Source: a virus
Length of the DNA stretch: 64,000 nucleotides
Reading direction: 5' to 3' (one strand)
Virus record (IMG/VR): IMGVR_UViG_3300017754_001832
Under the pieces are notes generated by a model. It did not search any database, was not told the origin of the DNA, and saw only the letters and a list, made by a program, of their open reading frames with translations. A program made the position numbers and the translations under genes. This document shows, piece by piece, positions 7,658-43,748 of the stretch; positions within the stretch are counted from its first letter, which is position 1; each line of letters begins with the position of its first letter.

Positions 7658-7667
7658 TAGGGGCAGG

Positions 7668-7823
7668 GTGCGAGTCTTGTGGCCGCTCTATGTGGCCGCC
7701 TTGCTCGCATCCCTCACGCTTGCCGCGTTGGCGCTGGCGTTGTGGGGCTGTCTCAAGTGGTGGCGTGAATTGATCGGCGCCGCGATTCTCTATTGGCTGA
7801 TATTGGGGCGGAGTAGACACTAG
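7668..7823 (+). CDS. Possible small membrane protein (51 aa), GTG start
   Basis: Hand translation gives VRVLWPLYVAALLASLTLAALALALWGCLKWWRELIGAAILYWLILGRSRH. Lies just before the terminator. Confidence 0.35.
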   Translation: MRVLWPLYVAALLASLTLAALALALWGCLKWWRELIGAAILYWLILGRSRH

Positions 7824-21878: not shown

Positions 21879-22042
21879 TGCGCTGGGAAAGAATCTACCT
21901 GATTGCGTGCCCGACGGTCGGCCTCCACGCCGTGACACGTCGCGCACGCCTCGGGTGGGTCACGATCTACCGCGATCTCGACCGCAAGGTGAAACGCATG
22001 TGGACCGTCCTCAAACCTGAAACCTGCCCGAGAGAAGCATGA
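21878..22042 (+). CDS. Hypothetical protein (54 aa)
   Basis: ATG overlaps the upstream TGA. It is the tail of ORF 21821..22042. Confidence 0.35.
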   Translation: MRWERIYLIACPTVGLHAVTRRARLGWVTIYRDLDRKVKRMWTVLKPETCPREA

Positions 22043-22587
22043 TGGACTTCAACGTCGTCCAGTGGCTCGGCGAGAACGTCGCGAAGGTGCTGCCCTTCCG
22101 CACGATCTACTCGTATGAGCGCGGGGTCCGCTGGACGATGGGGAAGAACCCGAAGGAACTGAAGCCCGGCCTCCGCTGGTGCCTCTACTTCTTCCACCGC
22201 GTCGAGCAGTTCGCCGTCGTCGAGCAGATCATCAACCTGCCAACGCAGTCGGTCGTGACCGCTGACGGCCGGGCGGTCTGCTTCTCGGCCAACATCTCTA
22301 TCGTGATCGACGACGCGGTGAAACACTACTGCGACGTGCAGAACTTCGAGCAGTCGGTTCGCGATCTCGCCATGGGCCACCTGTTCGAGCGCGTCTCTCA
22401 GCAGCGGATGGAAGACCTCGTGAAGCGCGAGACGACGAAACGACTCGAGTCGTCGCTCGAAGGCACCCTGACGACCCGCCTCCGCGATTGGGGGACTCGA
22501 GTCGTCGGCGTGAACTTCACCGACTTCGTGCCTGTCCGAAACCAATTCCGGCTGTTCCAGGATCAGCCCACAACCAAGGTGCTTTAA
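22039..22587 (+). CDS. SPFH/band-7 domain protein (182 aa)
   Basis: General resemblance to the prohibitin/HflC-like fold (..RTIYSYERGVRWTMGK...LPTQSVVTADG..). Confidence 0.55.
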   Translation: MMDFNVVQWLGENVAKVLPFRTIYSYERGVRWTMGKNPKELKPGLRWCLYFFHRVEQFAVVEQIINLPTQSVVTADGRAVCFSANISIVIDDAVKHYCDVQNFEQSVRDLAMGHLFERVSQQRMEDLVKRETTKRLESSLEGTLTTRLRDWGTRVVGVNFTDFVPVRNQFRLFQDQPTTKVL

Positions 22588-23343: not shown

Positions 23344-23626
23344 GAAGAAGAAGCCCACGCTCAACGAGACCGAGCGCCTGGCTCGCGAGGACGCCGCGCT
23401 CGCCGTCATCAAGGCCAACCGCAAGCCTCTGCCGTTCGGCGAAGAGGTGATGCAGGGCTTCGAGGGCATGAGCCGCCATCGCATCAGCCAGTTCATGGCG
23501 CGTGAACGGATGCGCGCCGAGGCCGAGGAGAAGCGGGGCCGCACCGACCGCGCCAACGATGCCCGCTGGAATATGGCTCGCGCCAAGCAGGCGCTCAAGT
23601 TCATCGACGCACAGGCCGCAGCATGA
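23336..23626 (+). CDS. Hypothetical basic protein (96 aa)
   Basis: ORF track. Confidence 0.55.
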   Translation: MRKKKKPTLNETERLAREDAALAVIKANRKPLPFGEEVMQGFEGMSRHRISQFMARERMRAEAEEKRGRTDRANDARWNMARAKQALKFIDAQAAA

Positions 23627-24291
23627 AGATCGCAGCACTCCCGCCGGGTCCGTTCGGCCTTATCTACGCCGACCCGCCATGGCGCGTCGAGACCTACAGC
23701 GAGAAGGGCCGCAACCGGCTGCCCGACGGCGATGTGGGCCACTACCAGACGATGACGCTCGACGACATGAAGTCGATGCCGGTCGCCGATGTCGCGGCGA
23801 AGGACTGCATGCTGGTGATGTGGGTGATCGACACGCACATTCCGCAGGCGCTCGAACTCGGCGCGGCGTGGGGCTTCACCTACAAGACCACGGCGTTCTA
23901 TTGGGCCAAGCTCCGCAAGCTCGGCGCCGACGGGAAACCCGGCCGCGAAGCGAAGACTCCCGAGAAGGAGTTCCCCGCCGGCATGGGATACTGGACCCGG
24001 GCGAACCCGGAGCAGGCGTTCCTGTTCACCCGAGGCAAGCCGCAGCGGATCGACAAGGGCGTGCCCAAGCTGATCCCCTTCGACGACTACCCACAGGTGG
24101 TCGCGGCCAACCGGCGCGAGCACAGCCGCAAGCCCGACGAGGTCTACGACCGCGTCAACCGGCTGATCGGCGACGTGCCCAAGCTCGAACTGTTCGCCCG
24201 CACCTCCGCACCCGGCTGGACCGCATGGGGCAACGAGGTCGGGAAGTTCGATACGAAACCCCGCAGATCGAGGACCGATTTGCTGGGATAA
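23623..24291 (+). CDS. MT-A70 family N6-adenine DNA methyltransferase (222 aa)
   Basis: Catalytic IYADPPWR (DPPW) near the N-terminus. Conserved ...EHSRKPDEVY... near the C-terminus. Confidence 0.85.
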   Translation: MKIAALPPGPFGLIYADPPWRVETYSEKGRNRLPDGDVGHYQTMTLDDMKSMPVADVAAKDCMLVMWVIDTHIPQALELGAAWGFTYKTTAFYWAKLRKLGADGKPGREAKTPEKEFPAGMGYWTRANPEQAFLFTRGKPQRIDKGVPKLIPFDDYPQVVAANRREHSRKPDEVYDRVNRLIGDVPKLELFARTSAPGWTAWGNEVGKFDTKPRRSRTDLLG

Positions 24292-26833: not shown

Positions 26834-27562
26834 TCAGTCGGGCAGCCGGAAACACTGCTCCAGCGGCTCATACGGAGCCTCTGGGATGCCCGGCTCGGTC
26901 GCCCGCACCACCGGAACCCCCAGCGTCGCGAGCTTCAGGACGACCTGCGTGAGGCTCGCGGCGAACTTCGGGTAGTTGGCGGCAAGGGTCTTGCGCTTGT
27001 GCTTGTCGTGCCACTGCGTCGCACCGTCCTTGCCCATCTGCATGTCGATCCCGAATAGGACTATTTTCCTAGCCCCGAGGTGATAGGCGAGGTTCACCGC
27101 CTGCGTCCCTGAGTCCCATCCGTGCAGGATCGAGGGCGTCGTCGAGAAGTTCCTCCGGTCACGCCAGTAGCGGAAGATGCGGGGGTGGTTCACGGTCGCC
27201 ACGTCCGAGGTCGCGGTCGAGATCGGGCCCTCGAACTTCGCGAGCACGTCCTTGCTGTTCCACTGCCACCACGAGGCGTCAGCGAAGTGCAGCCAATCGG
27301 CCCACGGCGCGATCTCGTAGCTCTGGTTCACGGCGATGCTTGCGCTCTGCTTCGCGACCGAGATGTCGAAGCCCTTCAGCGACGGCCCGCCGCCGATGAT
27401 CGACACGACCTGTCCCTCGAAGATGCGAGCGTGCGTGTGAGGCTGGATGCCTCGCGGCGCGTGCGGGTTGTGGCCTGGCTTGATCCGCCCGGCGAACGCC
27501 GCGTGCTTCTTCTCTGCCGCCGCGAGCGCCTTGCGCACTCGCCATGGAACGCCGTCCTTCAT
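26834..27562 (-). CDS. DUF115 / Maf-like (MptE-like fold) putative glycosyltransferase (242 aa)
   Basis: IIGGGPSL glycine loop, SIAVNQ, ARKIVLFGIDM. Same pattern as the 55645..56265 product. Lies next to the tail-fibre genes. Confidence 0.5.
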   Translation of the reverse strand: MKDGVPWRVRKALAAAEKKHAAFAGRIKPGHNPHAPRGIQPHTHARIFEGQVVSIIGGGPSLKGFDISVAKQSASIAVNQSYEIAPWADWLHFADASWWQWNSKDVLAKFEGPISTATSDVATVNHPRIFRYWRDRRNFSTTPSILHGWDSGTQAVNLAYHLGARKIVLFGIDMQMGKDGATQWHDKHKRKTLAANYPKFAASLTQVVLKLATLGVPVVRATEPGIPEAPYEPLEQCFRLPD

Positions 27563-28884
27563 TACGTCACCACAAAGATCAATCCGGAGTTGGTGGAGTC
27601 GACCGCGCCGCCGCCCGATCCATCTGTCATCGCGAGAGCCATGAACAGGAAGGCCGTGCCGGGCGCCGTCGTGAAGTCGAGATCGAAGCCGTCGCTCGTG
27701 AACGCATCGAACTCCGCAGCGAGGATTCCGTCAACGGTCGGGTCGCCGAGCGTGAGCAGGCTGCCGTCGCTGTTGCTGTAGTTGATCGAGTTCGACGGGT
27801 CCACGCCGTTCTGGCTCGCCAGCGAATACATGCCCGGCTCGGCTGCGGTGTAGACCGACATGTAGCTCGTGGCGTTGTTCGCGTCCGGACCCGATGGCGT
27901 GTTGATCGTGGTCGAGCCGCCGCCGGCCAGCACGAGGATGTCAGGCGTGAAGCCGACACCCGTGTAGCTCTGCACGCCGGTCGATGTCTTGGTGAGGAAG
28001 TCGTCGAGGTGGAAGTCCACGCCGGGCGCCTTGATCGCGAGCGCCGACATGATGATGCTGGAGTGCGAGGCCGACGGCGTGACGCTGTAGCCGCTCGCGT
28101 CGTAGTCGCCGATGGTGACTTGCGCACCAAGGGTCGGAGACGTGCCTCCATTGAGGAAGACCGCGATCCGGTTGTCGAGCATGCAGAAGTTCGAGCGGTT
28201 GACCGTGAGCGTGCCAGAGCCATCGCGCCGGCCAATGCAACGCTGCGTGTTCGAGCCGTCGTTGAGTCCGATGCCGAACGTGAACAGGCCGAAGCCGGCG
28301 CTGCTCGACGAGAGGCCAGTTGCCGATCTGGCGCAGTGCGCCGCGAACACGATGTCAGGCTCGAAGCCCGGCGCGGTCTGGTCGAGAGCAGACGTGCCCG
28401 TGCCGAGGTCGATATTATTGAGGTGCGCCTGGCAGTCCGATCCGCCGAACACGATGAGCGTGAACTGCCTCGTGTTGCCGAGCGAGATCGGCGCGTTGGT
28501 GAAGTCGAGGCTCACCTCGTCCACGTCGACTCCGGTGAGGTAGACTTCCCAATTCTGACTGAAGGTGCCGCCCGTGTAGACGAGCCGGTTCTCGTATCGC
28601 GTGTTGGATGATTGGACGGAGTTTCCGTCCTGAATAATCATCTTGTGCTCGGCATGTTTCGAGGAGTCGATTGCGCTGTTGCTATCGTCCACGGCCACCG
28701 CGAAGCCGACCGACATCTCAGGCCCGGTCGAAGTGGAGAGCGCCGTGCCTGCCGTCCCGTTGGCCGGGTCGTGCGAGTTCGAGATGAGGACCACCGCAAC
28801 AGGAATCTCGCCGCCCATATCCACGGCGAAGTCCACGACGCCTTTTGCGGCCTGCGTGAAGGTGACGACTGCGACCCTTGCCAT
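27562..28884 (-). CDS. Virion structural protein (440 aa), fibre or baseplate-associated
   Basis: Ser/Thr/Gly/Asp-rich. Internal duplication. Contains VDDSNSA. Position in the tail module. Confidence 0.7.
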   Translation of the reverse strand: MARVAVVTFTQAAKGVVDFAVDMGGEIPVAVVLISNSHDPANGTAGTALSTSTGPEMSVGFAVAVDDSNSAIDSSKHAEHKMIIQDGNSVQSSNTRYENRLVYTGGTFSQNWEVYLTGVDVDEVSLDFTNAPISLGNTRQFTLIVFGGSDCQAHLNNIDLGTGTSALDQTAPGFEPDIVFAAHCARSATGLSSSSAGFGLFTFGIGLNDGSNTQRCIGRRDGSGTLTVNRSNFCMLDNRIAVFLNGGTSPTLGAQVTIGDYDASGYSVTPSASHSSIIMSALAIKAPGVDFHLDDFLTKTSTGVQSYTGVGFTPDILVLAGGGSTTINTPSGPDANNATSYMSVYTAAEPGMYSLASQNGVDPSNSINYSNSDGSLLTLGDPTVDGILAAEFDAFTSDGFDLDFTTAPGTAFLFMALAMTDGSGGGAVDSTNSGLIFVVT

Positions 28885-29807
28885 TAGCCGATCCTCGAAC
28901 CCATGAGCGTGATCGAGATGCCGAGCAGCGCACCGAGCGATGCCGGCGCGACGATGCCAAGCCGATCACCAGCGGCGAACGAAGTGGCGCTGGCGAACGT
29001 GAAGACGCCCGTCTGCGATCCGCCGTCGAACGTCAGCGTGCCGATGCTCGATCCGTTCTTCTGGATGTCGAAGGCGATGCTGGCCGAGTTGGAGTCATCC
29101 GTGGTCGGGGTCTCCGCCCACGACTGCGATCCCGTGAGGTTGATCGGCAGGATGAACGGGCGGCTCGCCACGTAGGTCACGCGGCGGTTGGCGTCGCCCG
29201 ATCCACCGACGAAGAAGAACGCGGGGTCGAGGACGCGGAGTCGACCGTAGAGGTCGTCCAGTGCGCCCTGCACCGTGGTCTCATCAGAGTTCGAGTCGCC
29301 GCCGTCGCCCGAGTTGTAGGTCACGCTCGAAGCGTCAGGCGTGCCGCCGACCGAACGGATGCGCGCATAGAGATCGTCGAGCGCGTCGCCGACGTTCGTC
29401 TCTGCCGAGTTGGAGTCTCCCGTGTCGCCCGCATCGTATCCGATGTCCGTGGCGACCAGCGTGCCCGAGCCCGCGATAGCGACCCACGCGGCGCCGTTGA
29501 AACGGTACTTCGTGGAGTCACCGATGTTCCAGACCTCCCACCCTTCGAGCGGCGTGATGTAGGACCACGCGGCGCCGAAGTAGTAGATGATCGAGTTCGC
29601 GGCTCCAGAGTTGGAGTCTTCCGCAGACAGGATGTGACGGTCGCCCTCGGTCGGGGCGTCCGGAAGCTCCGTGACGAAGCTGAAGACCACCGGCTGCGTG
29701 AGCACGGAGAGCTTGGTGAGGTCGGCTGTATAGCCGGGCCCCCAGCCATCCTCGCCGATGCTGTAGCCGACTGATAGTCCAAGACCGGGTGCGCTGGATG
29801 CGGGCAT
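28884..29807 (-). CDS. Tail-fibre-like protein (307 aa) with four DSNS motifs
   Basis: Repeats GDSNSAETNVGDALDDLYARI and GDSNSDETTVQGALDDLYGRL, plus EDSNSG and DDSNSA. Confidence 0.7.
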   Translation of the reverse strand: MPASSAPGLGLSVGYSIGEDGWGPGYTADLTKLSVLTQPVVFSFVTELPDAPTEGDRHILSAEDSNSGAANSIIYYFGAAWSYITPLEGWEVWNIGDSTKYRFNGAAWVAIAGSGTLVATDIGYDAGDTGDSNSAETNVGDALDDLYARIRSVGGTPDASSVTYNSGDGGDSNSDETTVQGALDDLYGRLRVLDPAFFFVGGSGDANRRVTYVASRPFILPINLTGSQSWAETPTTDDSNSASIAFDIQKNGSSIGTLTFDGGSQTGVFTFASATSFAAGDRLGIVAPASLGALLGISITLMGSRIG

Positions 29808-29809
29808 GA

Positions 29810-32119
29810 TTAGGCTCCTCCGCCGAAGGTATATCCGAAGTTGAGGCCAAAGCCACCATAACCAACTCGGATCAGAAGGTCGTGGCCCTGAATGCTTTCA
29901 TTGCCGTCCGCGTCCACCGCCTTGACGTTGACGCGGATCAGGGTCTTGCCGGCGTAGTCGTAGGGGTTGAGCACGTAGCTCTCGCCCGTGATCCCTGCGT
30001 GCGTGGCGATCAGGACATCGCTCGCGCTGTAGATGCGGACAGTGGTCGTCACCCCGGCCGGCGGAGTGAGGCCGTCGTCATCCCACCCATAGACCGTGGT
30101 CTCTTCCATGTCGCGGTTGCGGAGCGCCCATGTGATGGTGATGTCGCCGTCTGCCTCGGCCACCGCGATCAGGTCGATCTCGCCGAACCCCGTCCCGTTG
30201 GCGCGCACCTTGGCGGGCCGGATCGGATCGGTCGGACGGTTGCTGACGGTGACAGGGATCGCCGTGGCGTCGTCGATGGCGAGCGTGCCGAGCGAGGTCT
30301 TGGGCAGCACCTTGTAGTTCACCGTCTGCCCGTCAGCGAGCGCCGTGGCGTCACCGAACTGCACCGTGGATGACAGGAACCAGATTTCCGTGCCGGCATC
30401 CCACGCCTTGGGAGTGGTGTCGAGCATGCCGCGCTTCACCGTCCACACGTTGTTCGAGTCGATCTCGGACAGGAAGGCGATCTCCTGCTCGTCCTCGTCG
30501 CCGCCGATCAGCACGAAGCCGTCGATCTCCGGGCCGGTGCCTGCCGTGGCGGTGCCGAACTCGATCTGCGATTCAGACTCCGCGTCGAGCGCGTCCACCA
30601 AGGTCGAGCGACCCGTGAGCATGCGCTCGCCGAGGTTGCCATACTCCACGGTGCCGCCGAGCGTCGTCTGCTCGCTCCAGAGTTCATAGCGCGAAGTGTC
30701 GCCATCCGTCTGCGTCGCCAGGATCGCGGCGAAGCTCTCGTCAGGATCAGGGAACGCGCCCGAAAACTGCGCGATGAAGAACGCGGGCATCGTGAAGGTC
30801 TTCGTGAACGGAGCCTCGGAAGGCGTCGCGCCGTCCGTGTGCAGCGTCTCGGGCGGAGCATAGTACGCACCAACGCGGAAGCCGAAGATGTCTTCTATCA
30901 GCGTGAGCCTGATCTTCGAGTCGGTCGTCTTGCCATAGTCCACGGAGCCGATGCGGAAGATCACGCTGTAGAGGCCGAGCGCCGCGTTCGAGACCTTGAT
31001 GACGCCGCCGGGCACGATCTGCGGATTGGTCGTGCGGAAGATTTCAAGCTCGCACGTCGCCAGCGGGGCAGACGCGGTCTGCGTGTCACGCACCGCCAGC
31101 TTCGTCGCCAGGTCCGCGCTGCGCACGCCATAGTAGTCGCGGTTGTCCGAGACCACGGCGCCCTGTGCGATCACGTTGCCGAGGTCTTGCCACGAGACGG
31201 TGGCCTTGTCCTCGTTGAGCGGGTTCGTGAAGCTGACGACGATCTCGTTGATCGTCTCGCCCCATGACTTCCGCTGGAAGTTGGTGAGCTTGGCGTTCGA
31301 CTCATCGAACTCCGGAAGCGTCGCGATGTCGTAGTCTGCACGCAGGAGCTTGATGTGGAACAGGCCGTCGGCCGGGTCCGTGTAAACGGTCGCCTGAATG
31401 TGGTCGAGGACTTCGCTGATGAAGCTCTCGGGAGTGTCCTGCTCGAACCACCCCATGCTCAAACCGAAGCCCTCGTCGGTGAGGGTCTGCGCCGCGTCGA
31501 TGAAGGATGCAGTGTGGATGCCCGCAGCAGAGCCGCCCATGAGGTTCGGGTCCACGAGCACGTCGTAGATGATATGGATCGGGTTGCAGTCGTCGCCGAT
31601 CATGGCGGTGTCTGCCGGCAGCACGCCAGCGGTGTATTCGGGCTCGCCCGTCACCTTGACCCACGCGGTCTTCAGGTAGGGGTTGTTGTATCCCCACACG
31701 AAGCCGGGAAGCGTGTAGCCCGGCGTGCCCGGCACGAGCGGGATGCCGTATGCGGTGCGAACGATCTCCGTGCCACCGACGAGGGTGGCGTTGCCGGTCA
31801 TGAAGACGGAGGCGAAGCCACGAAAGCCAGGGCAGGTGTCAGTCGTCCGACCAAGGCGGGCCGCCAACTCCTCGGGGATGGTCTGCGTTTCGTCGCCGGG
31901 CAGGAAGAACACGCTGCCTTCGACGCCGCCTTCTTTCTGGTTGCCGCCGAAGAGGTCGGGCTTGTTGAGGTCGATCACCTCCATGCTGGAGATGTCGCCT
32001 TCCCATGCCAGCTTCTCGCCGAAGTACAGGCCGCGCAGACGCACCGGCCCCAGACACACCCCGAAGTGCGTCGAGAGCCGGTACTCGGCAACCCTCATCT
32101 TCTGTGACTTACCGCCCAT
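29810..32119 (-). CDS. Host-specificity (lambda J / GTA g15-like) protein, main part (769 aa)
   Basis: Start MGGKSQKMRVAEYRLSTHFGVCLGPV... resembles the segment just after the GGGKGG loop of J/g15-like proteins. Size and position also fit. Confidence 0.75.
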   Translation of the reverse strand: MGGKSQKMRVAEYRLSTHFGVCLGPVRLRGLYFGEKLAWEGDISSMEVIDLNKPDLFGGNQKEGGVEGSVFFLPGDETQTIPEELAARLGRTTDTCPGFRGFASVFMTGNATLVGGTEIVRTAYGIPLVPGTPGYTLPGFVWGYNNPYLKTAWVKVTGEPEYTAGVLPADTAMIGDDCNPIHIIYDVLVDPNLMGGSAAGIHTASFIDAAQTLTDEGFGLSMGWFEQDTPESFISEVLDHIQATVYTDPADGLFHIKLLRADYDIATLPEFDESNAKLTNFQRKSWGETINEIVVSFTNPLNEDKATVSWQDLGNVIAQGAVVSDNRDYYGVRSADLATKLAVRDTQTASAPLATCELEIFRTTNPQIVPGGVIKVSNAALGLYSVIFRIGSVDYGKTTDSKIRLTLIEDIFGFRVGAYYAPPETLHTDGATPSEAPFTKTFTMPAFFIAQFSGAFPDPDESFAAILATQTDGDTSRYELWSEQTTLGGTVEYGNLGERMLTGRSTLVDALDAESESQIEFGTATAGTGPEIDGFVLIGGDEDEQEIAFLSEIDSNNVWTVKRGMLDTTPKAWDAGTEIWFLSSTVQFGDATALADGQTVNYKVLPKTSLGTLAIDDATAIPVTVSNRPTDPIRPAKVRANGTGFGEIDLIAVAEADGDITITWALRNRDMEETTVYGWDDDGLTPPAGVTTTVRIYSASDVLIATHAGITGESYVLNPYDYAGKTLIRVNVKAVDADGNESIQGHDLLIRVGYGGFGLNFGYTFGGGA

Positions 32120-32309
32120 TGCGAACCCTCTTCGCTTCGACAACCTTGCGCGCGAGTGCGTCACCCGCAGCGATCAAGTCAGCCGCAGGTAATCCTTCGC
32201 GCAAAAACGCCTTGAAGTCCAATCCGTGAAGCTCGAACCATTTGCGGGCGCCCTTCACGCAGAAGCCGGCAGCCCGAATGTCCGCAATGTGTATGCGTTC
32301 TTCGGACAT
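32109..32309 (-). CDS. Small protein (66 aa) inserted inside the host-specificity gene
   Basis: TAATG overlap upstream. The downstream ATG lies 8 nt before its stop. MSEERIHIADIRAAGFCVKGARKWFELHGLDF... Confidence 0.6.
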   Translation of the reverse strand: MSEERIHIADIRAAGFCVKGARKWFELHGLDFKAFLREGLPAADLIAAGDALARKVVEAKRVRNGR

Positions 32310-32557
32310 TACTTCTTCCCTCCGCCGGTCTTCACCTCGAACTCCCGCACGTTCTTATCGCCGTACCAGAGCAGGTTGATCCCCTTGACCGTGAGTGTGC
32401 CCCAGACGCGCGGCATCGGCTTCCCTGCCTCGGCGACGGGGTTCTCCAGGTCTTTCGCGGACTCTGTCTTCGGGCCCTTGGGCTTGGGCAGGATGAGTTG
32501 CGCCGCGACCGAGATCGCGATGGCGATGAGGATTTGAATGACCCACTGATATACCAT
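32309..32557 (-). CDS. Host-specificity protein, N-terminal fragment (82 aa)
   Basis: N-terminal TM helix, then PKPKGPK...PMPRVWGTLTVKGINLLWYGD...KTGGGKK, as in J/g15 N-termini. Confidence 0.65.
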   Translation of the reverse strand: MVYQWVIQILIAIAISVAAQLILPKPKGPKTESAKDLENPVAEAGKPMPRVWGTLTVKGINLLWYGDKNVREFEVKTGGGKK

Positions 32558-32560: not shown

Positions 32561-33439
32561 TCACCCGTATGTGTTGACTTGGCCGCCGACCGGATTCGCA
32601 ACAGGAATCCAAGGGCAGCCGCCGAAGTTGTGGATGTTCGAGTGCAGGGCCGTGCAGTGATCCATCTGGTGATTGCACCCGAGGGAGATGCGAACGGCCT
32701 GCGTGGTGAGCAACGTCGTCGGGCCCGTCATGTAGACCGTGTAGCCGTTCGACGACTCCGCCACCTCAAGCACGGTCCTGATCTCGACGTTGCCGGCCGG
32801 CGTCGTCCATTCGATGACACCGCCCTTGAAGTTCTCGATCATGCTCTCCGGTGCGAAGCCATCGGGCAGCCCAAGCTCCACGGCGTTCTCGACTACGGAG
32901 TTCGGGATCACGGTGAAGGTGGCCGCCGCCTTGTTCGCGTTGCACGCCTTCGGCCCGGTCGTGTAGAGCGTGTGCGTGCAGGTGAGTTGGAAGTTCCGGC
33001 GGAGCGCCACGCGCCGCAGCGAGGTCGCCAGAGGTTCGCACGTGAGCACGCACTGATGCGACCCATCGCCTTCGTGCTTGCCGTTGAGCACCCTGCCAAT
33101 CCAGATCGAGCGCCACTCGGTGTCCGCCTCGGACAGGTGGCCGCGCATGATGGTCATGGAGATCGGATACGACGGAGGATATGCGCGATAGAGTTGCGCG
33201 ATAGCCGCCGTCGTGGGCACGCGGAGTTCGAGGCTCTTGCGGTCGAGCGTGCCGCTCGCGCTGATCTTCCCGGCGGAGACCGGAATCGGTTCGTAGGTCA
33301 CGCCATCCTTGACGATGGCCTGCTCCGCGTCCGTGTAGCCGTACACCGAGAGAGTCCCGACACCATACCTGAAGAGGATCAGGTTGACGGGCATCCCGTG
33401 CTCGCGGCTCTCGTCATACTCGTCATAGGCGTTCGTCAT
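32561..33439 (-). CDS. DUF2163 / BR0599-type distal tail protein (GTA g13-like), 292 aa
   Basis: Internal ATG with ATGA overlap. C-terminal CNHQMDHCTALHSNIHNFGGCPWIP matches the conserved Cys/NFGG signature. Confidence 0.75.
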   Translation of the reverse strand: MTNAYDEYDESREHGMPVNLILFRYGVGTLSVYGYTDAEQAIVKDGVTYEPIPVSAGKISASGTLDRKSLELRVPTTAAIAQLYRAYPPSYPISMTIMRGHLSEADTEWRSIWIGRVLNGKHEGDGSHQCVLTCEPLATSLRRVALRRNFQLTCTHTLYTTGPKACNANKAAATFTVIPNSVVENAVELGLPDGFAPESMIENFKGGVIEWTTPAGNVEIRTVLEVAESSNGYTVYMTGPTTLLTTQAVRISLGCNHQMDHCTALHSNIHNFGGCPWIPVANPVGGQVNTYG

Positions 33440-35211
33440 CAGACGATCTCCGAGTTCGATTGGTCGTCGCCATCCTTGGCGACCCACGGTTGAGTTTGCA
33501 CAGTGAAGCTGACCTGGCAAACTTCATCCGTCAGGAACTCGAAGGTCGCCTGATCGGTGGCGAAGCGCCACAGCGTCACCCAGCAAATCTTGTCGATGTC
33601 TGCGAGGTCGATGTCCTGCCCAATCGTCTCGGTGAGTTGGATGGTGCTCTGCCCTTCTCCGGTCGAGTCGAGTTCGGCGAAGATGTCCGCGATCTGCTTG
33701 TAGACGATGGTGCCGTCGAGCAGGACAATCGCGATGCCGGCGCCATAGCGCACCGGGTCTTCGGCGTAGGTGCCCGCGAAGTCGACTCCGTCCACCACAA
33801 TGATGTCGTCGCCCGAGAGCATGTCCTGCGCGGCGTCGATGTCATACTCCCACGTCGGCATGTAGAACTCGCGGCACTGGCCGGCGCAACGGAAGAAGAA
33901 CTTCCGCAGCATCTCCGATTGCTCGAAGTCGCGGCCTGTGTAGTTGAGCACGAGACGGCGCTGCTGGAAGTCCTGATCCGCGATGCGGTCCACACGACCG
34001 ACATCGAAGTTGATGAAGATCGTCGGGTGGAAGTCCAGCGTCTCGGGCGGGTCGGCCCAATTCGGCTTCTCCAGCCACAGTTCCCGGTTGTCGAACGTGT
34101 AGAGCGGCGAGGATGTGGGCTCGATTGCCTGCGTGCCCGGCCGCACGAAGAAGTTCGGCGTGATCGTCTGCACCGTGTTGGTGAGCATGTTGCCGCCCGT
34201 CTCGTCGCCAATGAAGGCCGAGAGCGCGGGGAATATCTTGGTGCCGACGGGCCACTCGATCTCGTCGTCCGACTTGAAGAGGACCAGAGGCGCGCTGTTG
34301 GAGTCCTCGCTCTGCAAGTCGATGCGGCGCAGAGACCAATTCGTTCCATCGTAGAGGATGACGTAGGCGTTGGTCTCCGCCAGCCACCACGGGATGTCGC
34401 CGTCGATGTACGCCTCAAGACCGTTCGCCGGGATCACGGCGGAGGTCGTGACATAGCGCGTCATCTCAGGAACGAAGAACCGACCGCGCTGGTTGCCGGT
34501 CATCAGGCGTTGATACTCGCGACGCTCTGCGCGCTTGAGCGCGATCTCGAACTCCAGAGACATACGCGGCGTCTGGCGATACTGGATGCGCTGCTCGCGC
34601 CCGTTCGCCGAGGAGATGACCTCGGTGCGGAACTCGTATTGGATCGTGTAGGACGACGACCAATTAGGACGGTATTCCCAGACCTGATCGGTGAGCGTCG
34701 GCGTGCGGAAGCCCGTCACGTCGAGCGTCAGGATGTCGCCGAGGTTGAAGGCCAGTGTGAAGGAGTCGGACAGGACCGTCGATCCATCGCCAAGCGCCGT
34801 GAACGCGAGGGTTTGAATCTGCAAGGCACTGAGGTTCACAGGAACCGAGCCATCGTAGGAGACCTCGGTCCCGATAGCCGGCGTCACCGTGTTGAGCACG
34901 GCGTCATCGAAGTAGGCGTTCCACACCTGCACGTTGATCGTCGTGTCCGCAGCGAAGGTGCCGTAGGCCAGTTCGCTCGGGATCAGGTAGAAGCGGAAGT
35001 AGAAGTCATCGAACATCGTGAACTGGCGCGAGCCGGTGCGCGTCTCGCCGAGTTCCTGCACCATGAAGTAGTTCGTCCCTGGTCCGAGGACAGAGGACGC
35101 CGTGTCCTCGCCATGGATGCGGGCGCCGGATTGCACGCCGCCAGCGACGCCGGTTGCAGCATTGCCCGGCGTCGTGAAGGTCTCCATGAGAGGCTGGATC
35201 GAGCTAGCCAT
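33439..35211 (-). CDS. Distal tail / baseplate protein (590 aa)
   Basis: Position between the tape-measure-proximal genes and DUF2163. Contains EDSNSA. C-terminus reads DDQSNSEIV. Confidence 0.7.
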   Translation of the reverse strand: MASSIQPLMETFTTPGNAATGVAGGVQSGARIHGEDTASSVLGPGTNYFMVQELGETRTGSRQFTMFDDFYFRFYLIPSELAYGTFAADTTINVQVWNAYFDDAVLNTVTPAIGTEVSYDGSVPVNLSALQIQTLAFTALGDGSTVLSDSFTLAFNLGDILTLDVTGFRTPTLTDQVWEYRPNWSSSYTIQYEFRTEVISSANGREQRIQYRQTPRMSLEFEIALKRAERREYQRLMTGNQRGRFFVPEMTRYVTTSAVIPANGLEAYIDGDIPWWLAETNAYVILYDGTNWSLRRIDLQSEDSNSAPLVLFKSDDEIEWPVGTKIFPALSAFIGDETGGNMLTNTVQTITPNFFVRPGTQAIEPTSSPLYTFDNRELWLEKPNWADPPETLDFHPTIFINFDVGRVDRIADQDFQQRRLVLNYTGRDFEQSEMLRKFFFRCAGQCREFYMPTWEYDIDAAQDMLSGDDIIVVDGVDFAGTYAEDPVRYGAGIAIVLLDGTIVYKQIADIFAELDSTGEGQSTIQLTETIGQDIDLADIDKICWVTLWRFATDQATFEFLTDEVCQVSFTVQTQPWVAKDGDDQSNSEIV

Positions 35212-36281: not shown

Positions 36282-37342
36282 GAGTTGGACTCCTCGTTCG
36301 CGATGAATGCACTGTTACTATCTTCTGGCCCGCGTGTCACGGCGAACCAATTTCCAAGTGCGGTGCGGAAGGTGTTCTGGAAGACGATGTGGACGGAGTT
36401 CTCCGCCTGGATCACATTCTCGATTGTCTGGCCTCGGCCGGGCACGCGGTAGACGCCATCCAGCACGCCGAAGGTCTGGTCGCTCGGGCTGGCCTGCGTG
36501 AGCGTGAAAGGGGTGAGCGTGAAGCTATCGCCATACGCCACCTGCTCACGCTTGCTCACGTCCTCGTAGCCGTACTCGCCGCTGCCCGAGTTCGATTGCA
36601 CAGAGTTGAGGACCGCGCCGAGCCCGAGGCCAACGCCGAAGAACGCCGGGCCGATGCAGGCCGGCGCCGACGTGTCATTCTTCGAGACCTTCAGCCAGTT
36701 GCCAGAGGGATCGAGCATCCACGCGCTCGGCATGTAGCCGCTCGACCCGGTCGACGAGTTGCTGTTGGAGAAGCAGAAGGCGGAGTGATCGTCGGAGACC
36801 GAGGAGTGCGAGGTCGACTCCGAGGAGCCGCCCGATCCACACGAGCCGCCGATGAACATCGGATAGGTGTAGACCGTGGGGTCCGCGTAGGGGAGGAAGA
36901 AGCCGGCATACATCGTCTCGTAGACCGTGCCGACCTGGACAACGATGATGAAGCGACGACCGTTCGCGATGAACCAATAGCGCATCGTGTTCGGGCGCGT
37001 GAACATCTTGACCGGATACGGGGTCATGTTGACGTGCAGGTCGTAGCTGGCAGCCGACTCCACGATGCCCGTGCAGCCGCGCATGTACCACGTGCTCACA
37101 TCGCCAGCGACGTTCGAGTCATCGCGCTTCATCGCCACATAGACAGACGCATCTGCCGCGAGGCCGGGGCCACGCAGCACGACGCCGAGAGCGGCGTCTG
37201 CGGAGTCGCTGTTGGAGTCGGAACCCCATGCGATCTCCCAATTCTGTCCGAGGGCCACGAGTTCCGCGTCCGTCGTGATGAACGAGATGAACTTGTCCCA
37301 AAGATCGGCGTGATTGGTCGCCGTGCCTGTCTGGTAAGCCAT
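36278..37342 (-). CDS. Virion structural protein (354 aa)
   Basis: Contains SDSNSD, QSNSG, SNSNS and EDSNSA. C-terminus EESNS. Lies directly downstream of the tape measure gene. Confidence 0.7.
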   Translation of the reverse strand: MAYQTGTATNHADLWDKFISFITTDAELVALGQNWEIAWGSDSNSDSADAALGVVLRGPGLAADASVYVAMKRDDSNVAGDVSTWYMRGCTGIVESAASYDLHVNMTPYPVKMFTRPNTMRYWFIANGRRFIIVVQVGTVYETMYAGFFLPYADPTVYTYPMFIGGSCGSGGSSESTSHSSVSDDHSAFCFSNSNSSTGSSGYMPSAWMLDPSGNWLKVSKNDTSAPACIGPAFFGVGLGLGAVLNSVQSNSGSGEYGYEDVSKREQVAYGDSFTLTPFTLTQASPSDQTFGVLDGVYRVPGRGQTIENVIQAENSVHIVFQNTFRTALGNWFAVTRGPEDSNSAFIANEESNS

Positions 37343-40300
37343 TAGCTGAGTGCTCCGTTCACGGCTGTTTTGTTATCGCGGATGTAGTTCATGAAGGCTT
37401 GCTGCCCCACCGGGCTGTTGAGGCCCGCTTGGATGAAGTCAGCCGCGTCCACGAAGTTGTTGATGACGGGTCGCTTGTCTCCACCACCACCGCCAATGCC
37501 CGCATTCTTGATGTGACGCGGGTTGTTCTCGGTGACGACCTCTTCGCCCTTCTGGAGGATCGCGGCGACCTCATTCTTGCGAAGGCCCGGCAGACCGCCA
37601 TTGTGGAAGCGGCCCGCGTTGCGGAACAGGGAGGCCGGCACGGTGCGCTTCTGGAGGCCCGCCCCCGCGATACCGCCACCGTGCGCGATGCCTGCCACTG
37701 CCGAGGCAGCAGCCGCAGCCGCGATAGCCGCAGCAGCCGCAGCACCCGCCGTCGTGATCGCGGCTGCCAGAGACAGGCCGGTGGCCGTCAGAGCAGCGCC
37801 CGCCGTCGTTCCCGCAGTGGTGATGCCGACCGCCGTCGTCGTTCCCGCCGTCGTGACCGAAGTTGCTGCGGTCACACCAGCAGTCGTCAGGGACGCGGAG
37901 ATCGTGGCAGCCGCAGCCGTTGCGGCCGGGTTGAGTGAAGCCACGCCGCTCGCCACGCCATCAAGCAGGCCGCCGATGGGCGTGTTCTGGAGCGCGTTGA
38001 GGACGGCCTGCTGCGCGATCATCTCTGCGATCTTCAGCAGGAAGTCCGCGCCAAACTGGAGGGCCGCGTCTCGGATGTTGCGGAAGACCTTCTCCCACCG
38101 CTCACCCTCGTCGATGCCTTTGCCGATAGCCGCGCCAGCCGCGAGGATGGCGTCAACAGCACCGCTGCCGAACGCATCACGCACCTGCTGCTTGATCTCC
38201 AGCAGCTTGATCTGTTGTTCCGAGAGTTCGACGTTGACCCGAGTCAGGGCCGCGATTGCCTTCTCGTCGCCGAGGGCACGCGCCAGAGCCAGCGCCTCTT
38301 CTTTCGCGGCGAGGATTTTGACTCGCATCTCTTCGAGCGCGGCAGTACGGCCTTGCGTCTCCTCGGCGGAGAGGGCGCCACCTTCGCTGAGTTTGTTGAA
38401 CTCCTCCAGAGCTTCCTGGCGCTGACGCTCCAGAGCGCGGACATCTTCGACCGCGTCCTTCAGCTTCTTCTCGGCACGCTCGCGTTCGATGATCTGCGAA
38501 GTGACGGCAGCCCATGCCTGTCCTTCTTTCGAGAGCAGGTCGATGTTCTGCTGGATCGCCAGACGTTCGACTTCCTGTTGGACAGTCGTCTCTTCGCCGA
38601 GCAACTTCCGCAGTTCCGCCTGCTGTTCCAGAACGGAGTTGTGGACGCGCTCTGCCTCGGTCGCGTCGAAGAGTGCGCCAACGCTGGCGCGCAACGCATC
38701 CTCTTGCGTCTGCGTGAACTTGAGGCCGTCCTCTTGCGCCTTTTGCTTCGCAGCGAAGATGGCCTTCTCGATCTCCTGATCGCGCAGCGACTTGCCGACG
38801 AGGGTTGCCTCGAAGCGACGGAGGTCGATGCTGCGCTGGAGTTCGTCGTTGAACTCTTTCTGCGGATCGCGAGGAGGCTTGTCACGCTTCGCGGCCTTGG
38901 CGTCTTCAGCCGCGAACTCTTTCTCAAGCTGAGCGCGGGCCGCCGCGATGAGTTCGAGACGGCGCTTCACTTCCGCCGGGTCTTGGATGCCGAGCAGGGA
39001 CTTGCCGCCAGCGTCGCTGAGCTTCTGCCGTTTGGCATCGCGCTCGCGCTGCTTGGCGATCTCGGGCAGGAACGACTCAACCTCAGACAGAGCAGCCGCC
39101 GCTTGGTCCGCGACACGGCGTTGCTCCGCGAGAGCGTCGGTGGTGCGCTTGATGGAGCCGGTCGTCGTGTCGTAGCTCAGACCGAGGCGCGCAATGGTGC
39201 GGTCGATGTCGATGGTCGAGTCGCCAAGCTGCTTCGTGATGATGGCCTGCCGACCCATCGCTTGCTCGACTTCGCTGGCCTTGTCGGTGACGCCGATGAG
39301 GCTCGATGCGAAACCCTGGATCGCATTCGCAGCGGGACCGTCCAGTGTGTCGCTGACCTTCCGGACTTCCGCCTGGAACTCGCTGATCGTCAGCTTGCCT
39401 TGGATGAACTTGCTCGCCAGAGCGCCGAGCTTCTGCGCGGCCTCTTCACCGACGACGCCGCTGTTCATGCGCGCGAAGTCTGCCACCACGTCGAACGCGG
39501 CCTTGCGCGATTCGTCGCGCAGCTTCACGTATTCGTTCGCGAGGTCGTCGAGGTTCTTGCGAGCGCGCAGTGCGTCAGTCGCAACGAGCGTTGCATTGAA
39601 CGCCCGGCCGGCGCGCTCTGCTTCGTTGGTTTCCGCCGTGTAGGAGTCGAGTTGGCGCGTGTGCTCGTCGAGCGCGGTGGTAGCGCCATCGACCTTGGTC
39701 GCCATGTCGAAGAACATGCCGCCGAGCAGGGATACCGCAGTGAACGCGAGAGCCAGAGGGCCGAGAGCCCTGATCGCCGTGATCGCGGCGGTGGCAAGAG
39801 AGCGAAGCGCGATGCCTGCGGCTGCGCTCGCTGCTGCGAACGTCTTGCTGGCCGTACCCGAGAAGATAAGAGCCCTGCCCATGGTGAGGGCCGAAGCTGC
39901 GGCGACTCGAACCGCAAGATTGAACCCTGCGACGGCGTTCTGCGCGGACACCATCGTCACGACCTGCGCACGCTCGGCAGCCGTCAGCGCCAGAACTTCC
40001 TTGGTGGTGAAAGCCGTGGCTGCCGCGTTTGCGCGCAAGCCCGCAGTGAACTCCGTGAAGAACTTCGCAACCTTGAGCGCGATGAGCCCGGCGAAGACAG
40101 GCTTCAACGCACTCGCGACCTTCACGACCTCGGTGATGGCCTTGACTGCGTTTCCAAGCAGGGCGCCGAGTTGCAGGAAGAAGTCGCGGCCTTCGCGCGA
40201 TTTGAATCCTTCGTTGAGTTGCTTCAGCGACTCTTGCAGCGCGTCAGCGAAGCCACCTTCCGCCACCTTCTGCTGCGCCTGAAGCAGGTTGTTCGAGAAG

Positions 40301-42327: not shown

Positions 42328-42772
42328 AGCGGTTGCCCTTCGAGACGTTTTCCAGCGCCGGAAGGTACTGGAGGTTGTTCAAAACATGCAGCCCCGAGAC
42401 GTTTTTCCCACGCAACGGGACAATGTGATCTACGTGATACCCCAAAGGACAGGCTTCGTAAAATCGCTCTATGGCTTTTAGATCGGCCCACGCGGGGGTC
42501 TGCTGAGACAAGCACGCACGGCGCTTGGCTTCCTTGGCGTTTTTCTTTCCGGGGTTGTTCCTCGCCCATGCGGCGATGGCGGCCCGATCCTTGGCTTTTT
42601 GTTCTTCGGATCGAGCCGCTTTAGACGCACGGACGCGGTCGGGGTGTCGCTGCCTGTATCGTTTGGCAGCCTCTCGTTTAGCCTCCGGGTTGCGGGCGGC
42701 CCAACCGTCTGCGGGGTTGCGCCGTTTCCACTCGCGTTGGGCCGCCCGCTGTTTGCTGATGTCGCGCGCCAT
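42314..42772 (-). CDS. HNH endonuclease (152 aa)
   Basis: HVDHIVPLRGKNVSGLHVLNNLQYLPALENVSKGN. Basic repeat-rich N-terminus. Wedged between the chaperone and tape measure genes. Confidence 0.8.
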   Translation of the reverse strand: MARDISKQRAAQREWKRRNPADGWAARNPEAKREAAKRYRQRHPDRVRASKAARSEEQKAKDRAAIAAWARNNPGKKNAKEAKRRACLSQQTPAWADLKAIERFYEACPLGYHVDHIVPLRGKNVSGLHVLNNLQYLPALENVSKGNRYGEA

Positions 42773-43179
42773 TAGCCTAGGATGTCTTGGTCTGAGCGTC
42801 TTTTGACGGGAGGAGGCAGGCGCGGATCGCGGCGTCCCTTGGTCGGGATGATCGCGGGCTTCGCGGTCTGCGTCTTCGTCTCCGCCGGCTCTTGCCCCTT
42901 CGATCCTCCACCGAGGTCGTTGAGCATTTTCTGAAAGCCCTTGGCGCCCTTCTTATCCATCACGGAGATGATCGCGCCCTGAGTCAGGACGGCGTTCGTG
43001 ATGAGTGCATCGTTGATGCGCTTCGTCAGGCGAGCCGCCTCTTGCCATACGGCGTAGAGGGGCCACCTGTCCGCGTCAGGGAAGCCGTGGGCCTTCAGGA
43101 GGCCGACTGTATTCCAGACACCATCGAGCCAGACGCGGAGGTTCGCAGGGCGCTCACGAGACCGTTGACGCCCCCGAAC
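42772..43179 (-). CDS. T-like extension frame of the tail assembly chaperone, reached by a -1 frameshift
   Basis: The -1 frame is open across the G stop and reads ...NLRVWLDGVWNTVGLLKAHGFPDADRWPLYAVWQEAARLTKRIN...DQDILG. The candidate slip region TTCGGGGGC (43171-43179) is not a canonical heptamer. Confidence 0.55.
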   Translation of the reverse strand, partial: VRGRQRSRERPANLRVWLDGVWNTVGLLKAHGFPDADRWPLYAVWQEAARLTKRINDALITNAVLTQGAIISVMDKKGAKGFQKMLNDLGGGSKGQEPAETKTQTAKPAIIPTKGRRDPRLPPPVKRRSDQDILG

Positions 43180-43664: not shown

Positions 43665-43748
43665 ATTTACCCTCTTCTGAAACGAGCCGGGGCCCGTAGC
43701 ATCTTGTGCCACGGGCCCCGGAAGATTGCAACCCAACTTCTACCTGTC

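What the first reader, a model, noticed from the sequence alone, without database searches (positions are those of the whole stretch)
32109..32557. J-like host-specificity gene is split at its GGGKGG loop by a 66-codon inserted gene
The 82-aa ORF (32309..32557) has the TM helix and the PK.KGP...P.VWG... N-terminus typical of lambda J / GTA g15-like proteins. It stops at ...EVKTGGGKK. The large ORF resumes at 32119 with MGGKSQKMRVAEYRLS.... In unsplit relatives, as I recall them, this is one continuous ...GGGKGG...EFSYSVS... segment.

Between the two parts lies a translationally coupled small gene (32109..32309). It has a TAATG overlap upstream, and the downstream ATG sits inside its last codons. 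This looks like a small-ORF insertion that converted one tail protein into two, or a module for regulated assembly.
Basis: partly seen in the sequence, partly recalled or inferred. Interest (0 to 1): 0.5.

Follow-up and report, generated by a model that had tools for sequence, protein, structure and literature searches.

The report
Chi-type split tail-tip plug gene trio
The "split" tail gene is real, but it is the standard three-gene layout (small plug protein, small helper gene, large tail-tip protein) already annotated in many phages such as Chi and YuA, so this is an ordinary new member and not a fresh insertion.

Summary
On the minus strand, an 82-aa ORF (S1, 32309-32557) ends ...GGGKK. 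It overlaps by TAATG a 66-aa ORF (S2, 32109-32309). The ATG of a 769-aa Phage-tail_3 protein (Big, 29810-32119) lies inside the last codons of S2. S1+Big is collinear with single-chain homologues (Burkholderia KL1, Brevundimonas Fanboy, Xanthomonas AhaSv).

The layout is neither new nor recent:
- The same hub > S1 > S2 > Big trio is annotated in phage Chi (chi_068/069/070), Yuavirus, Vojvodinavirus, Pamexvirus-like, Nipunavirus, Mardecavirus and Rhodobacter phages.
- All 120 closest homologues of Big (38-100% identity) start at the junction.
- Chi's S1 is a separate chain in the solved tail tip (PDB 8VJH chain U).
- An S1 profile also weakly matches the plug domain of lambda gpI, not lambda J.

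S2 (phrog_1196) is a conserved small helical protein with no fold match. It was found only in split loci and is absent from PDB. I infer that it is an assembly helper for the free hydrophobic plug. Whether the split arose by insertion or the fused forms by deletion is unresolved.

Side observation: an [D/E]DSNS motif recurs across virion proteins, and a sialyltransferase-like gene sits nearby.

The parts
32309..32557 (-). S1: 82-aa tail-tip plug / 'insertion' protein. It has an N-terminal hydrophobic helix followed by the PKPKGP...AEAGKPMP.VWGT...NLLWYGD motif. It is the counterpart of Chi gp68.
   Evidence: - phrog_1180 E 9.4e-20, and phrog_1101 positions 3-79.
- PDB 8VJH chain U 'Tail assembly protein 1': E 0.006 alone, 1e-23 with the family profile.
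- Lambda gpI residues 141-199: E 0.012-0.1.
- 1102 cluster representatives at E<=1e-3 in a search of 1.84 billion proteins.
32109..32309 (-). S2: 66-aa basic, all-helical protein of unknown function (phrog_1196). It lies between S1 and Big and is translationally coupled to both.
   Evidence: - phrog_1196 E 1.3e-25, also hit by all 6 tested orthologues.
- No Pfam or NCBIfam family.
- AlphaFold2 model: pLDDT 85, five helices.
- pN/pS 0.30.
- GGAGGG Shine-Dalgarno sequence 9 nt upstream, made of the Gly-Gly-Lys codons of S1.
29810..32119 (-). Big: 769-aa central tail-tip hub/fibre protein (J-like, 'baseplate hub 2'/megatron-type). It starts exactly where fused homologues continue after the plug domain.
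   Evidence: - Pfam Phage-tail_3 E 5e-8.
- phrog_1101 positions 76-816 (E 3e-182) and phrog_6284 positions 1-716.
- PDB 8VJH chain A (Chi, 1296 aa): its residues 1-723 align to Big residues 2-721, E 4e-63. Also JBD30 8RK3, E 4e-54.
32561..33439 (-). Baseplate hub 1 protein (gpL/g13-like, with an Fe-S-type BR0599 domain), directly upstream of S1. The probable start is the ATG at 33439, because relatives have 293 aa.
   Evidence: - Pfam Phage_BR0599 E 4e-11 and Phage_phiJL001_Gp84_N.
- TIGR02218, E 2e-13 but below its curated score cut-off (50.5 bits vs 80.5).
- phrog_778.
- Gene calls in relatives.
33439..35211 (-). 590-aa distal-tail (Dit/g12-like) protein, upstream of the hub.
   Evidence: phrog_1082 E 1e-90 and a weak DUF2460 match. 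Same position as chi_066.
28884..29807 (-). 307-aa DUF2793 tail-fibre protein, downstream of Big.
   Evidence: Pfam DUF2793 E 9e-11 and phrog_7049.

Best explanation
The window carries the tail-tip module of a Chi/YuA-type siphophage, probably infecting an alphaproteobacterium. The gene order is Dit, hub 1, S1, S2, Big, fibre.

**S1.** In this lineage the membrane-active plug is made as its own 82-aa polypeptide. It is not the N-terminus of the J-like hub protein. The plug is called 'insertion protein' in lambda and T1, and 'iris/penetration domain' in RcGTA and R4C. By homology with Chi gp68 and lambda gpI, three S1 copies should sit in the lumen of the tip cone. [quoted passage not shown] At infection they would be released toward the outer membrane.

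**Coupling.** S1, S2 and Big are translated as a coupled unit. The S1 stop overlaps the S2 start, and the Big start lies inside the S2 end. Each gene has its own Shine-Dalgarno sequence. This fits the 3:3 stoichiometry of S1 and Big.

**S2.** It is a conserved 66-aa helical protein, seen here only where the plug is unlinked from the hub protein. I infer that it is a non-virion assembly helper. It would keep the free hydrophobic S1 soluble or deliver it to Big, a job that covalent linkage does in fused homologues and that the removable N-terminal domain of gpI may do in lambda.

**Shown and inferred.** Shown: the anatomy, the homologies, the wide distribution and the split/S2 co-occurrence. Inferred: S1's position and role in this particular phage (high confidence) and S2's role (about 0.35).
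For: **Anatomy and coupling.**

**S1 and Big against solved structures.**
- S1 and Big match Chi tail-tip chains U and A in PDB 8VJH.
- chi_068 is identical to 8vjh_U.
- 8VJH is the Chi tail tip, and Chi, lambda and T1 share a trimeric insertion protein under the tape-measure C-terminus (PMC11945409).
- Lambda gpI residues 135-223 form the hydrophobic plug tripod that binds gpJ by beta-augmentation (PMC10721106).
- The S1 profile hits gpI residues 141-199.
- RcGTA and R4C carry the equivalent iris/penetration domain at the N-terminus of the megatron protein (PMC7296036, PMC10276861).

**Distribution of the trio.**
- Found in 13 of 13 known or metagenomic split loci analysed together, with S2 always between S1 and Big.
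- Found in further loci.
- The 4 fused loci have hub followed directly by the fused gene, with no S2 within the 3-5 kb flanks held.
- All 120 nearest homologues of Big start at the junction and lack an S1 domain.
- Of the 150 best S1 profile hits, about 127 are stand-alone and 18 are long proteins matched at their N-terminus.

**S2.**
- Under purifying selection.
- Chi's S2 (chi_069) is in no PDB entry.
Against: **S2's role is inference only.**
- There is no fold or family match.
- No natural S1-S2 fusion was found among 150 S1 homologues.
- No complex model could be run.
- Virion proteomics of the related phage AXL1 failed to detect even S1 (gp41), so non-detection of a small protein is uninformative (PMC9206674).
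- The Chi structure paper could not be read. I do not know what its authors say about gp69.

**Other limits.**
- The gpI match is marginal (E 0.012-0.1).
- Fused genomes were searched for S2 only within 3-5 kb flanks.
Confidence: 0.8

Rival explanations
1. One reading: a small mobile ORF inserted in frame into a once-continuous J-like gene in this lineage and converted one protein into two.
For: - S1+Big is collinear with fused proteins.
- S1 and Big share a reading frame in about 11 of 17 split loci, and the insert is 195 nt here.
- The junction carries a short duplicated Gly-Gly-Lys segment (GGC GGA GGG AAG ... GGC GGT AAG).
- In a midpoint-rooted NJ tree the two basal clades are all fused.
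- S2 has lower GC3 than its neighbours in this window, 0.67 against 0.87.
Against: - It is not recent or lineage-specific. Homologous S2 sits at the same place in Chi, YuA, FP1, SSP002, Rhodobacter phages and others.
- All 120 nearest homologues of Big, down to 38% identity, are split.
- The tree backbone support is 0-34%, so the direction is open.
- The GC3 dip is not seen in other lineages.
- Lambda and T1 also encode the plug separately.
- A single in-frame deletion of S2 would equally produce the fused forms.
Confidence: 0.3
2. The three-gene state is ancestral for this family. The single-chain proteins (KL1, Fanboy, AhaSv, P0087 and others) arose repeatedly by in-frame deletion of S2.
For: - S2 is one homologous family at one position across distant lineages.
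- Fused and split forms are interleaved on the tree. Fused P0160 is sister to MP1412 (63% support), and fused P0087 lies inside the 100%-supported clade that holds the window.
- P0087's junction reads '...YEFDRKI SKKEKQHIVEY...', which looks like the window-type S1 end joined to the window-type Big start.
- The shared frame makes a one-step fusion possible.
- Lambda and T1 keep the plug separate.
Against: - Internal supports are low, so the nested positions are not secure.
- RcGTA and R4C, which are distant relatives, are fused.
- Modular exchange between phages could spread either state.
Confidence: 0.35
3. Recoding: S1-S2 or S1-Big fusion proteins are made by programmed frameshifting, readthrough or bypassing, as in the G/GT tail chaperones. 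This is what the RefSeq label 'tail assembly chaperone (x2)' implies.
For: - S2 is in the -1 frame relative to S1 in 12 of 13 loci, the same geometry as G/GT.
- S1 and Big are in frame in most loci.
- S1 ends in Lys codons.
Against: - No X XXY YYZ slippery heptamer is present at the S1 end in the window, FP1, MP1412, RcMaeve, RcThunderbird or Chi (sequences).
- S2 has its own ATG and Shine-Dalgarno sequence everywhere.
- Three in-frame stops separate S1 and Big.
- The Chi structure has a 76-aa chain U and a chain A that starts at residue 1 of chi_070.
- The canonical chaperone position, between the major tail protein and the tape measure, is occupied by other genes at 42772-43736.
Confidence: 0.03
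4. Artefact or pseudogene: a nonsense or frameshift error broke a J-like gene.
For: None beyond the appearance of a split.
Against: - The identical layout occurs in independent assemblies and isolates.
- S2 is a conserved protein under purifying selection.
Confidence: 0.01

Closest known systems
Salmonella phage Chi tail tip: chi_067 (BH1P), chi_068 (tail assembly protein 1, PDB 8VJH chain U), chi_069, chi_070 (BH2P / minor tail protein, chain A)
   Same: - Same gene order and sizes: 272 / 76 / 79 / 1296 aa in Chi against about 292 / 82 / 66 / 769 aa here.
- Same start/stop overlaps, and S1 and Big in the same frame.
- All three proteins are homologous.
- The large protein starts at the same junction.
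   Different: - Only 18-32% identity.
- Chi's large protein has a longer C-terminal part.
- Different host group. The nearest named relatives of the window's Big protein are from Sphingomonas, Rhizobium, Sulfitobacter and Paraburkholderia.
- Virion location is shown for Chi only.
Lambda gpI (tail tip assembly / 'insertion' protein) upstream of gpJ; T1 gp34
   Same: - Separately encoded plug protein next to the J-like gene.
- A hydrophobic segment followed by APK..P and G..PV.(F/Y)G motifs.
- The profile match covers gpI residues 141-199.
- It forms a trimeric plug under the tape-measure C-terminus.
   Different: - gpI has an extra N-terminal domain of about 130 residues, and lambda has gpK. 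Neither is present here.
- Lambda has no S2-like gene.
- Sequence similarity is marginal (E 0.012-0.1).
Single-chain phrog_1101-type tail proteins (Burkholderia KL1 gp26, Xanthomonas AhaSv, Brevundimonas Fanboy; Shigella Sf11 gp14) and RcGTA g15 / R4C megatron with an N-terminal iris/penetration domain
   Same: - Same domains in the same order. S1+Big aligns end to end with them.
- Same upstream hub gene.
   Different: - One polypeptide, no S2 gene.
- For RcGTA and R4C the equivalence is structural and positional, taken from the literature. No sequence match was obtained here.
Lambda gpG/gpGT-type tail assembly chaperones (the label RefSeq and PHROGs give to S1 and S2)
   Same: Two small consecutive ORFs, the second in the -1 frame.
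   Different: - Wrong position: downstream of the tape measure and hub, not between the tail tube and tape measure.
- No slippery site, and separate initiation.
- S1 is a virion component in Chi.
- The label is not supported for S1 and is untested for S2.

Membership tests
Chi/YuA-type tail-tip trio (phrog_1180 + phrog_1196 + phrog_1101/6284) | Small protein with an N-terminal hydrophobic helix that belongs to phrog_1180 | tested here: met
   E 9.4e-20 over the full length. Profile match to Chi gp68, E 1e-23.
Chi/YuA-type tail-tip trio (phrog_1180 + phrog_1196 + phrog_1101/6284) | Second small protein that belongs to phrog_1196, placed between S1 and the large protein | tested here: met
   E 1.3e-25. 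Position confirmed here and in all other split loci examined where S2 could be scored.
Chi/YuA-type tail-tip trio (phrog_1180 + phrog_1196 + phrog_1101/6284) | Large Phage-tail_3 protein that begins at the plug/hub junction | tested here: met
   phrog_6284 positions 1-716 and phrog_1101 from position 76. 8VJH chain A residue 1 aligns to Big residue 2.
Chi/YuA-type tail-tip trio (phrog_1180 + phrog_1196 + phrog_1101/6284) | Order Dit > hub (BR0599) > S1 > S2 > Big, with overlapping stops and starts | tested here: met
Chi/YuA-type tail-tip trio (phrog_1180 + phrog_1196 + phrog_1101/6284) | S1 present in the virion as a separate chain in the tip lumen | not testable with these tools
   Shown only for Chi (PDB 8VJH chain U). 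It needs proteomics or cryo-EM of this phage.
Lambda gpI-type insertion (plug) protein | Hydrophobic segment followed by strands, with sequence similarity to gpI residues 135-223 | tested here: inconclusive
   Profile A5 against PDB: gpI 90-aa chain E 0.012, full-length gpI E 0.1, aligned over residues 141-199. The motifs agree but the score is marginal.
Lambda gpI-type insertion (plug) protein | N-terminal extra domain, and a partner gpK (JAB/NlpC-P60) gene between L and I | tested here: not met
   S1 is only 82 aa. No gene lies between the hub and S1, and no peptidase family was found among the proteins of this module that were scanned.
gpG/gpGT-type tail assembly chaperone | Located between the major tail protein and the tape measure, with a -1 slippery site giving a fusion product | tested here: not met
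   S1 and S2 lie downstream of the tape measure (37342-42327). No slippery heptamer is present. Other genes occupy the canonical slot.
   The S1 profile search of all PDB chains at E<=10 returned Chi gp68 and lambda gpI, but neither gpJ nor RcGTA megatron. The functional equivalence to the g15 iris/penetration domain rests on the literature.

The most novel reading that the evidence does not exclude
S2 (phrog_1196) is a dedicated trans-acting holdase or adaptor that is needed only when the membrane-active plug is not covalently tied to the hub protein. Phages have switched repeatedly between the 'plug fused' and 'plug free + S2' states by in-frame gain or loss of the S2 cassette. If so, this would be a compact natural example of a gene split stabilised by a small accessory gene. 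It could also be a way to let the plug leave the tip independently during outer-membrane penetration.
Probability: 0.3. Interest if true: 0.4.

Novelty: new member of a known kind. Interest (0 to 1): 0.25.

Why it matters
Mostly it corrects annotation:
- The two small genes that RefSeq and PHROGs call 'tail assembly chaperones' are different things.
- One is the tail-tip plug, equivalent to lambda gpI's C-terminal domain and to the iris/penetration domain.
- The other is an uncharacterised helical protein tied to the unlinked state of that plug.

For phage structural biology, the strict split/S2 co-occurrence gives a testable lead on how a hydrophobic, membrane-active plug is kept out of the producer cell's membrane and loaded into the tail tip. 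For this window itself the locus is ordinary.

Tried and rejected

2. Single-protein and close-alignment scans of IMG/VR gave only 7 true loci. Two more (L027, L028) are false: a carbamoyltransferase that contains 'KWFELHGL'.
3. The Chi structure paper (PMC11246221) is not held, so the role its authors give to gp68 and gp69 was taken second-hand from PMC11945409.

**Tests of S2 that came back empty**
6. Pfam and NCBIfam gave nothing except a chance-level DUF7394 hit in 1 of 6 orthologues.
7. No natural S1-S2 fusion (Rosetta-stone evidence) was found among the 150 best S1 hits.
8. S2's low GC3 as a sign of foreign origin: it is seen in this window and more weakly in a few other lineages, but in most lineages it is absent or reversed.

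**Evolutionary tests that were inconclusive**
9. Same-frame S1/Big as a sign of recoding or insertion: about 11 of 17 loci share the frame. This is explained by shared ancestry plus overlapping-gene constraints and carries little weight.
10. The programmed-frameshift reading was rejected by inspecting the S1 3' ends.
11. The NJ tree of the 405-column core (56 taxa, 100 bootstraps) could not polarise split against fused, because backbone support is 0-34%.

**Proteomics literature**
12. It is uninformative for such small proteins (AXL1).
Full report
**1.

On the minus strand the window has a compact run of tail genes.
- S1: ATG 32557 to TAA 32311-32309, 82 aa, ending ...EFEVKTGGGKK. Residues 5-23 (WVIQILIAIAISVAAQLIL) are hydrophobic.
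- S2: ATG 32309 to TAA 32111-32109, 66 aa. Its ATG shares one base with the S1 stop (TAATG).
- Big: ATG 32119 to 29810, 769 aa, MGGKSQKMRVAEYRLS... Its start lies 11 nt inside the end of S2.

A GGAGGG sequence sits 9 nt upstream of the S2 start, and AGAGGG sits 6 nt upstream of the Big start. S1 and Big are in the same frame, separated by three stops. S2 is in the -1 frame. The database gene calls for identical proteins use the same boundaries (P0001, P0012, P0168).

**2. What the three proteins are**

- Big carries Pfam Phage-tail_3. It matches phrog_1101 at profile positions 76-816 and phrog_6284 from position 1.
- S1 matches the stand-alone family phrog_1180 (E 9e-20). It also matches positions 3-79 of phrog_1101, the same profile that Big joins at position 76.
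- S2 matches phrog_1196 (E 1e-25) and nothing in Pfam or NCBIfam.
- The upstream genes are a BR0599/Gp84_N hub and a DUF2460-like distal tail protein. The downstream gene is a DUF2793 fibre.
- The tape measure is at 37342-42327.

**3. Solved structures**

Big aligns from its residue 2 to residue 1 of PDB 8VJH chain A ('Minor tail protein', 1296 aa; E 4e-63). S1 matches 8VJH chain U ('Tail assembly protein 1', 76 aa).

8VJH is the tail tip of Salmonella phage Chi (PMC11945409). In the Chi genome the genes are chi_067 hub, chi_068 (76 aa, identical to chain U), chi_069 (79 aa) and chi_070 (1296 aa). Chi's S2 (chi_069) is in no PDB entry.

A profile of 43 S1 sequences hits Chi gp68 at E 1e-23. 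Its next hit is lambda 'tail tip assembly protein I' residues 141-199 (E 0.012 for the 90-residue chain, 0.1 for full-length gpI). The hydrophobic segment, the APK..P motif and the G..PV.(F/Y)G motif are aligned.

The literature describes this element as follows.
- Lambda gpI 135-223 is a trimeric 'insertion protein'. It plugs the tip lumen under the tape-measure C-terminus and binds gpJ by beta-augmentation. Its N-terminal part is hydrophobic and may enter the outer membrane (PMC10721106).
- T1 gp34 and Chi have the same element (PMC11945409).
- RcGTA and R4C carry an equivalent iris/penetration domain at the N-terminus of the megatron protein.

So S1 is the tail-tip plug. Its nearest lambda counterpart is gpI, not J.

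**4. Split against fused**

Three annotated phages encode a single protein whose first 75-85 residues are the S1 domain. They are Burkholderia KL1 (803 aa), Brevundimonas Fanboy (678 aa) and Xanthomonas AhaSv (826 aa). In each, the gene follows the hub gene directly.

MAFFT alignments show S1+Big collinear with these and with 18 further long proteins. The break lies in a short variable Gly/Lys/Ser linker.

**5. The arrangement is widespread and old**

The trio is annotated in:
- Bordetella FP1, Pseudomonas MP1412/YuA, and Rhodobacter RcMaeve and RcThunderbird;
- Chi;
- Vibrio SSP002, Loktanella pCB2051-A, Synechococcus S-ESS1, Pseudomonas JG054, Xanthomonas Xoo-sp2 and Vibrio AQKL99, where S2 is unannotated but present;
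- a Rhizobium prophage and metagenomic contigs.

tblastn with S1 finds 345 phage records. A profile search of 1.84 billion cluster representatives finds 1102 hits at E<=1e-3. Among the best 150, about 127 are stand-alone small proteins and 18 are long proteins matched at their N-terminus.

All 120 best homologues of Big (38-100% identity) begin MG(G)K... at the junction, and none contains an S1 domain.

In FP1 and MP1412 the annotated starts of the large gene are probably too far downstream. GTG codons that give VGGSSKKVTVGYKYY... overlap the S2 end, as in all the other loci.

**6. Direction of change**

I built an NJ tree of a 405-column core from 56 proteins, with 100 bootstraps. Fused and split forms are interleaved. 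With midpoint rooting the basal clades are fused. The 100%-supported clade that contains the window holds 31 split and 4 fused proteins. Backbone and internal supports are only 0-43%, so neither 'insertion' nor 'repeated deletion of S2' can be preferred.

- Points for deletion: S2 is one homologous family at one position in all split lineages. Fused P0087 has window-type sequence on both sides of its junction and no S2 next to it.
- Points for insertion: the short duplicated Gly-Gly-Lys segment at the junction, and the fused state of RcGTA and R4C.
- The shared frame of S1 and Big (about 11 of 17 loci) fits either direction and is largely inherited.

**7. S2**

- All six tested orthologues are phrog_1196.
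- Invariant residues in that set are R12, C17, G20, G29, F35, G39 and P41.
- pN/pS is 0.30, like its neighbours.
- The AlphaFold2 model is a confident five-helix bundle (pLDDT 85) with no significant structural neighbour.
- In every split locus where S2 could be scored it sits between S1 and Big. In the four fused loci it is absent from the 3-5 kb flanks held.

From this co-occurrence, and from its absence in the deposited Chi tip model, I infer a non-virion helper for the free hydrophobic plug (probability about 0.35). The alternatives are an unresolved or ejected lumen protein, or a factor that acts on the tape-measure C-terminus. There is no direct evidence, and virion proteomics in a related phage missed even S1.

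**8. Rejected readings**

- G/GT-like frameshifting: no slippery heptamer, own start codons, separate chains in Chi, and the canonical chaperone slot is used by other genes.
- Sequencing artefact: the layout is conserved across independent assemblies.

**9. Verdict**

This is a correct observation of an already annotated, structurally exemplified gene arrangement, so it is a new member of a known kind. The open residue of interest is the uncharacterised S2 family and the polarity of the split.

**10. Seen in passing**

The motif [D/E][D/E]SNS recurs about 25 times in at least 10 virion proteins of this phage. Codon choice varies, so selection acts on the peptide, not the DNA. Carriers include the major head protein, the head decoration protein, the major tail protein, phrog_687 proteins, the Dit-like protein and the fibres. 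The motif is conserved in close relatives but absent from the other phages examined.

The last gene of the tail module (26834-27562) matches phrog_4603 'alpha-2,3-sialyltransferase' (E 7.5e-33). It also has a sub-threshold MptE-like/DUF115 match. This suggests virion glycosylation at that motif.

Noticed in passing
window, minus strand. Examples: 29093, 29294, 29414, 29615 (307-aa fibre); 28683; 33459 and 34302 (590 aa); 35231, 36023, 36131, 36143 (356 aa); 36289, 36319, 37216 (354 aa); 44123, 44162 (major tail protein); 45142; 46161; 46742 (C-end of the major head protein); 48020, 48041 (head decoration): A short peptide motif [D/E][D/E]-S-N-S-[A/G] recurs about 25 times in the true frames of at least 10 different virion proteins, several times at the very C-terminus (EEDSNS*). 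Codons vary, so the peptide is what is selected, not the DNA. From composition I would expect well under one occurrence (a rough mental estimate, not computed). The motif is conserved at the same places in close metagenomic relatives (L010-L012) and absent from all the other phages examined. It may be an acceptor motif for a post-translational modification.
   Followed up: partly
window 26834-27562 (-): The 242-aa protein at the end of the tail module matches phrog_4603 'alpha-2,3-sialyltransferase' (E 7.5e-33). It also has a sub-threshold Pfam MptE-like/DUF115 match, the domain of Maf-type flagellin glycosyltransferases. Together with the DSNS motif this suggests a glycosylated virion. No sugar-biosynthesis genes were recognised among the 10 other proteins scanned.
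   Followed up: partly
window 42314-42772 (-): A 152-aa ORF directly upstream of the tape-measure gene matches phrog_1035 'endonuclease VII' (E 9e-11) and phrog_26577. It may be a nuclease gene lodged between the chaperone-position genes (42772-43736) and the tape measure.
   Followed up: no
L001 (Bordetella FP1) 4155 vs 4212; L002 (Pseudomonas MP1412) 4424 vs 4523: The RefSeq starts of the large tail protein are probably 19 and 33 codons too far downstream. Upstream GTG codons restore the conserved N-terminus (V)GGSSKKVTVGYKYYLG and the usual overlap with the end of the S2 gene. In Vibrio AQKL99 (L018) the S2 gene (about 2703-2891) is not annotated at all.
   Followed up: partly
proteins P0020, P0022, P0035, P0055, P0100, P0143; P0030, P0092, P0112, P0136: Some stand-alone S1 homologues have 40-80 extra N-terminal residues with further hydrophobic segments. 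Others have Pro-rich C-terminal tails. These are either variant plug proteins or mis-called starts.
   Followed up: no
window 32109-32309 (-): S2 has a much lower GC3 (0.67) than S1 and Big (0.87) in this window. The difference is reduced in the closest relative (0.75 against 0.82-0.85). Other lineages are mixed: a smaller dip in L022, pCB2051-A and the Rhizobium prophage, none or the reverse elsewhere. Unexplained.
   Followed up: partly
window 1-7700 (+): The leftmost genes have a lower GC3 (0.63-0.72) than the rest of the genome (about 0.8-0.9). The two largest (415 and 530 aa) have no Pfam match. This may be a foreign or fast-evolving early region.
   Followed up: no
window 23623-24291 (+), 22039-22587 (+): An MT-A70 family DNA methyltransferase (E 4e-25) and an SPFH/Band 7 protein (E 3e-14) are encoded in the plus-strand block.
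   Followed up: no
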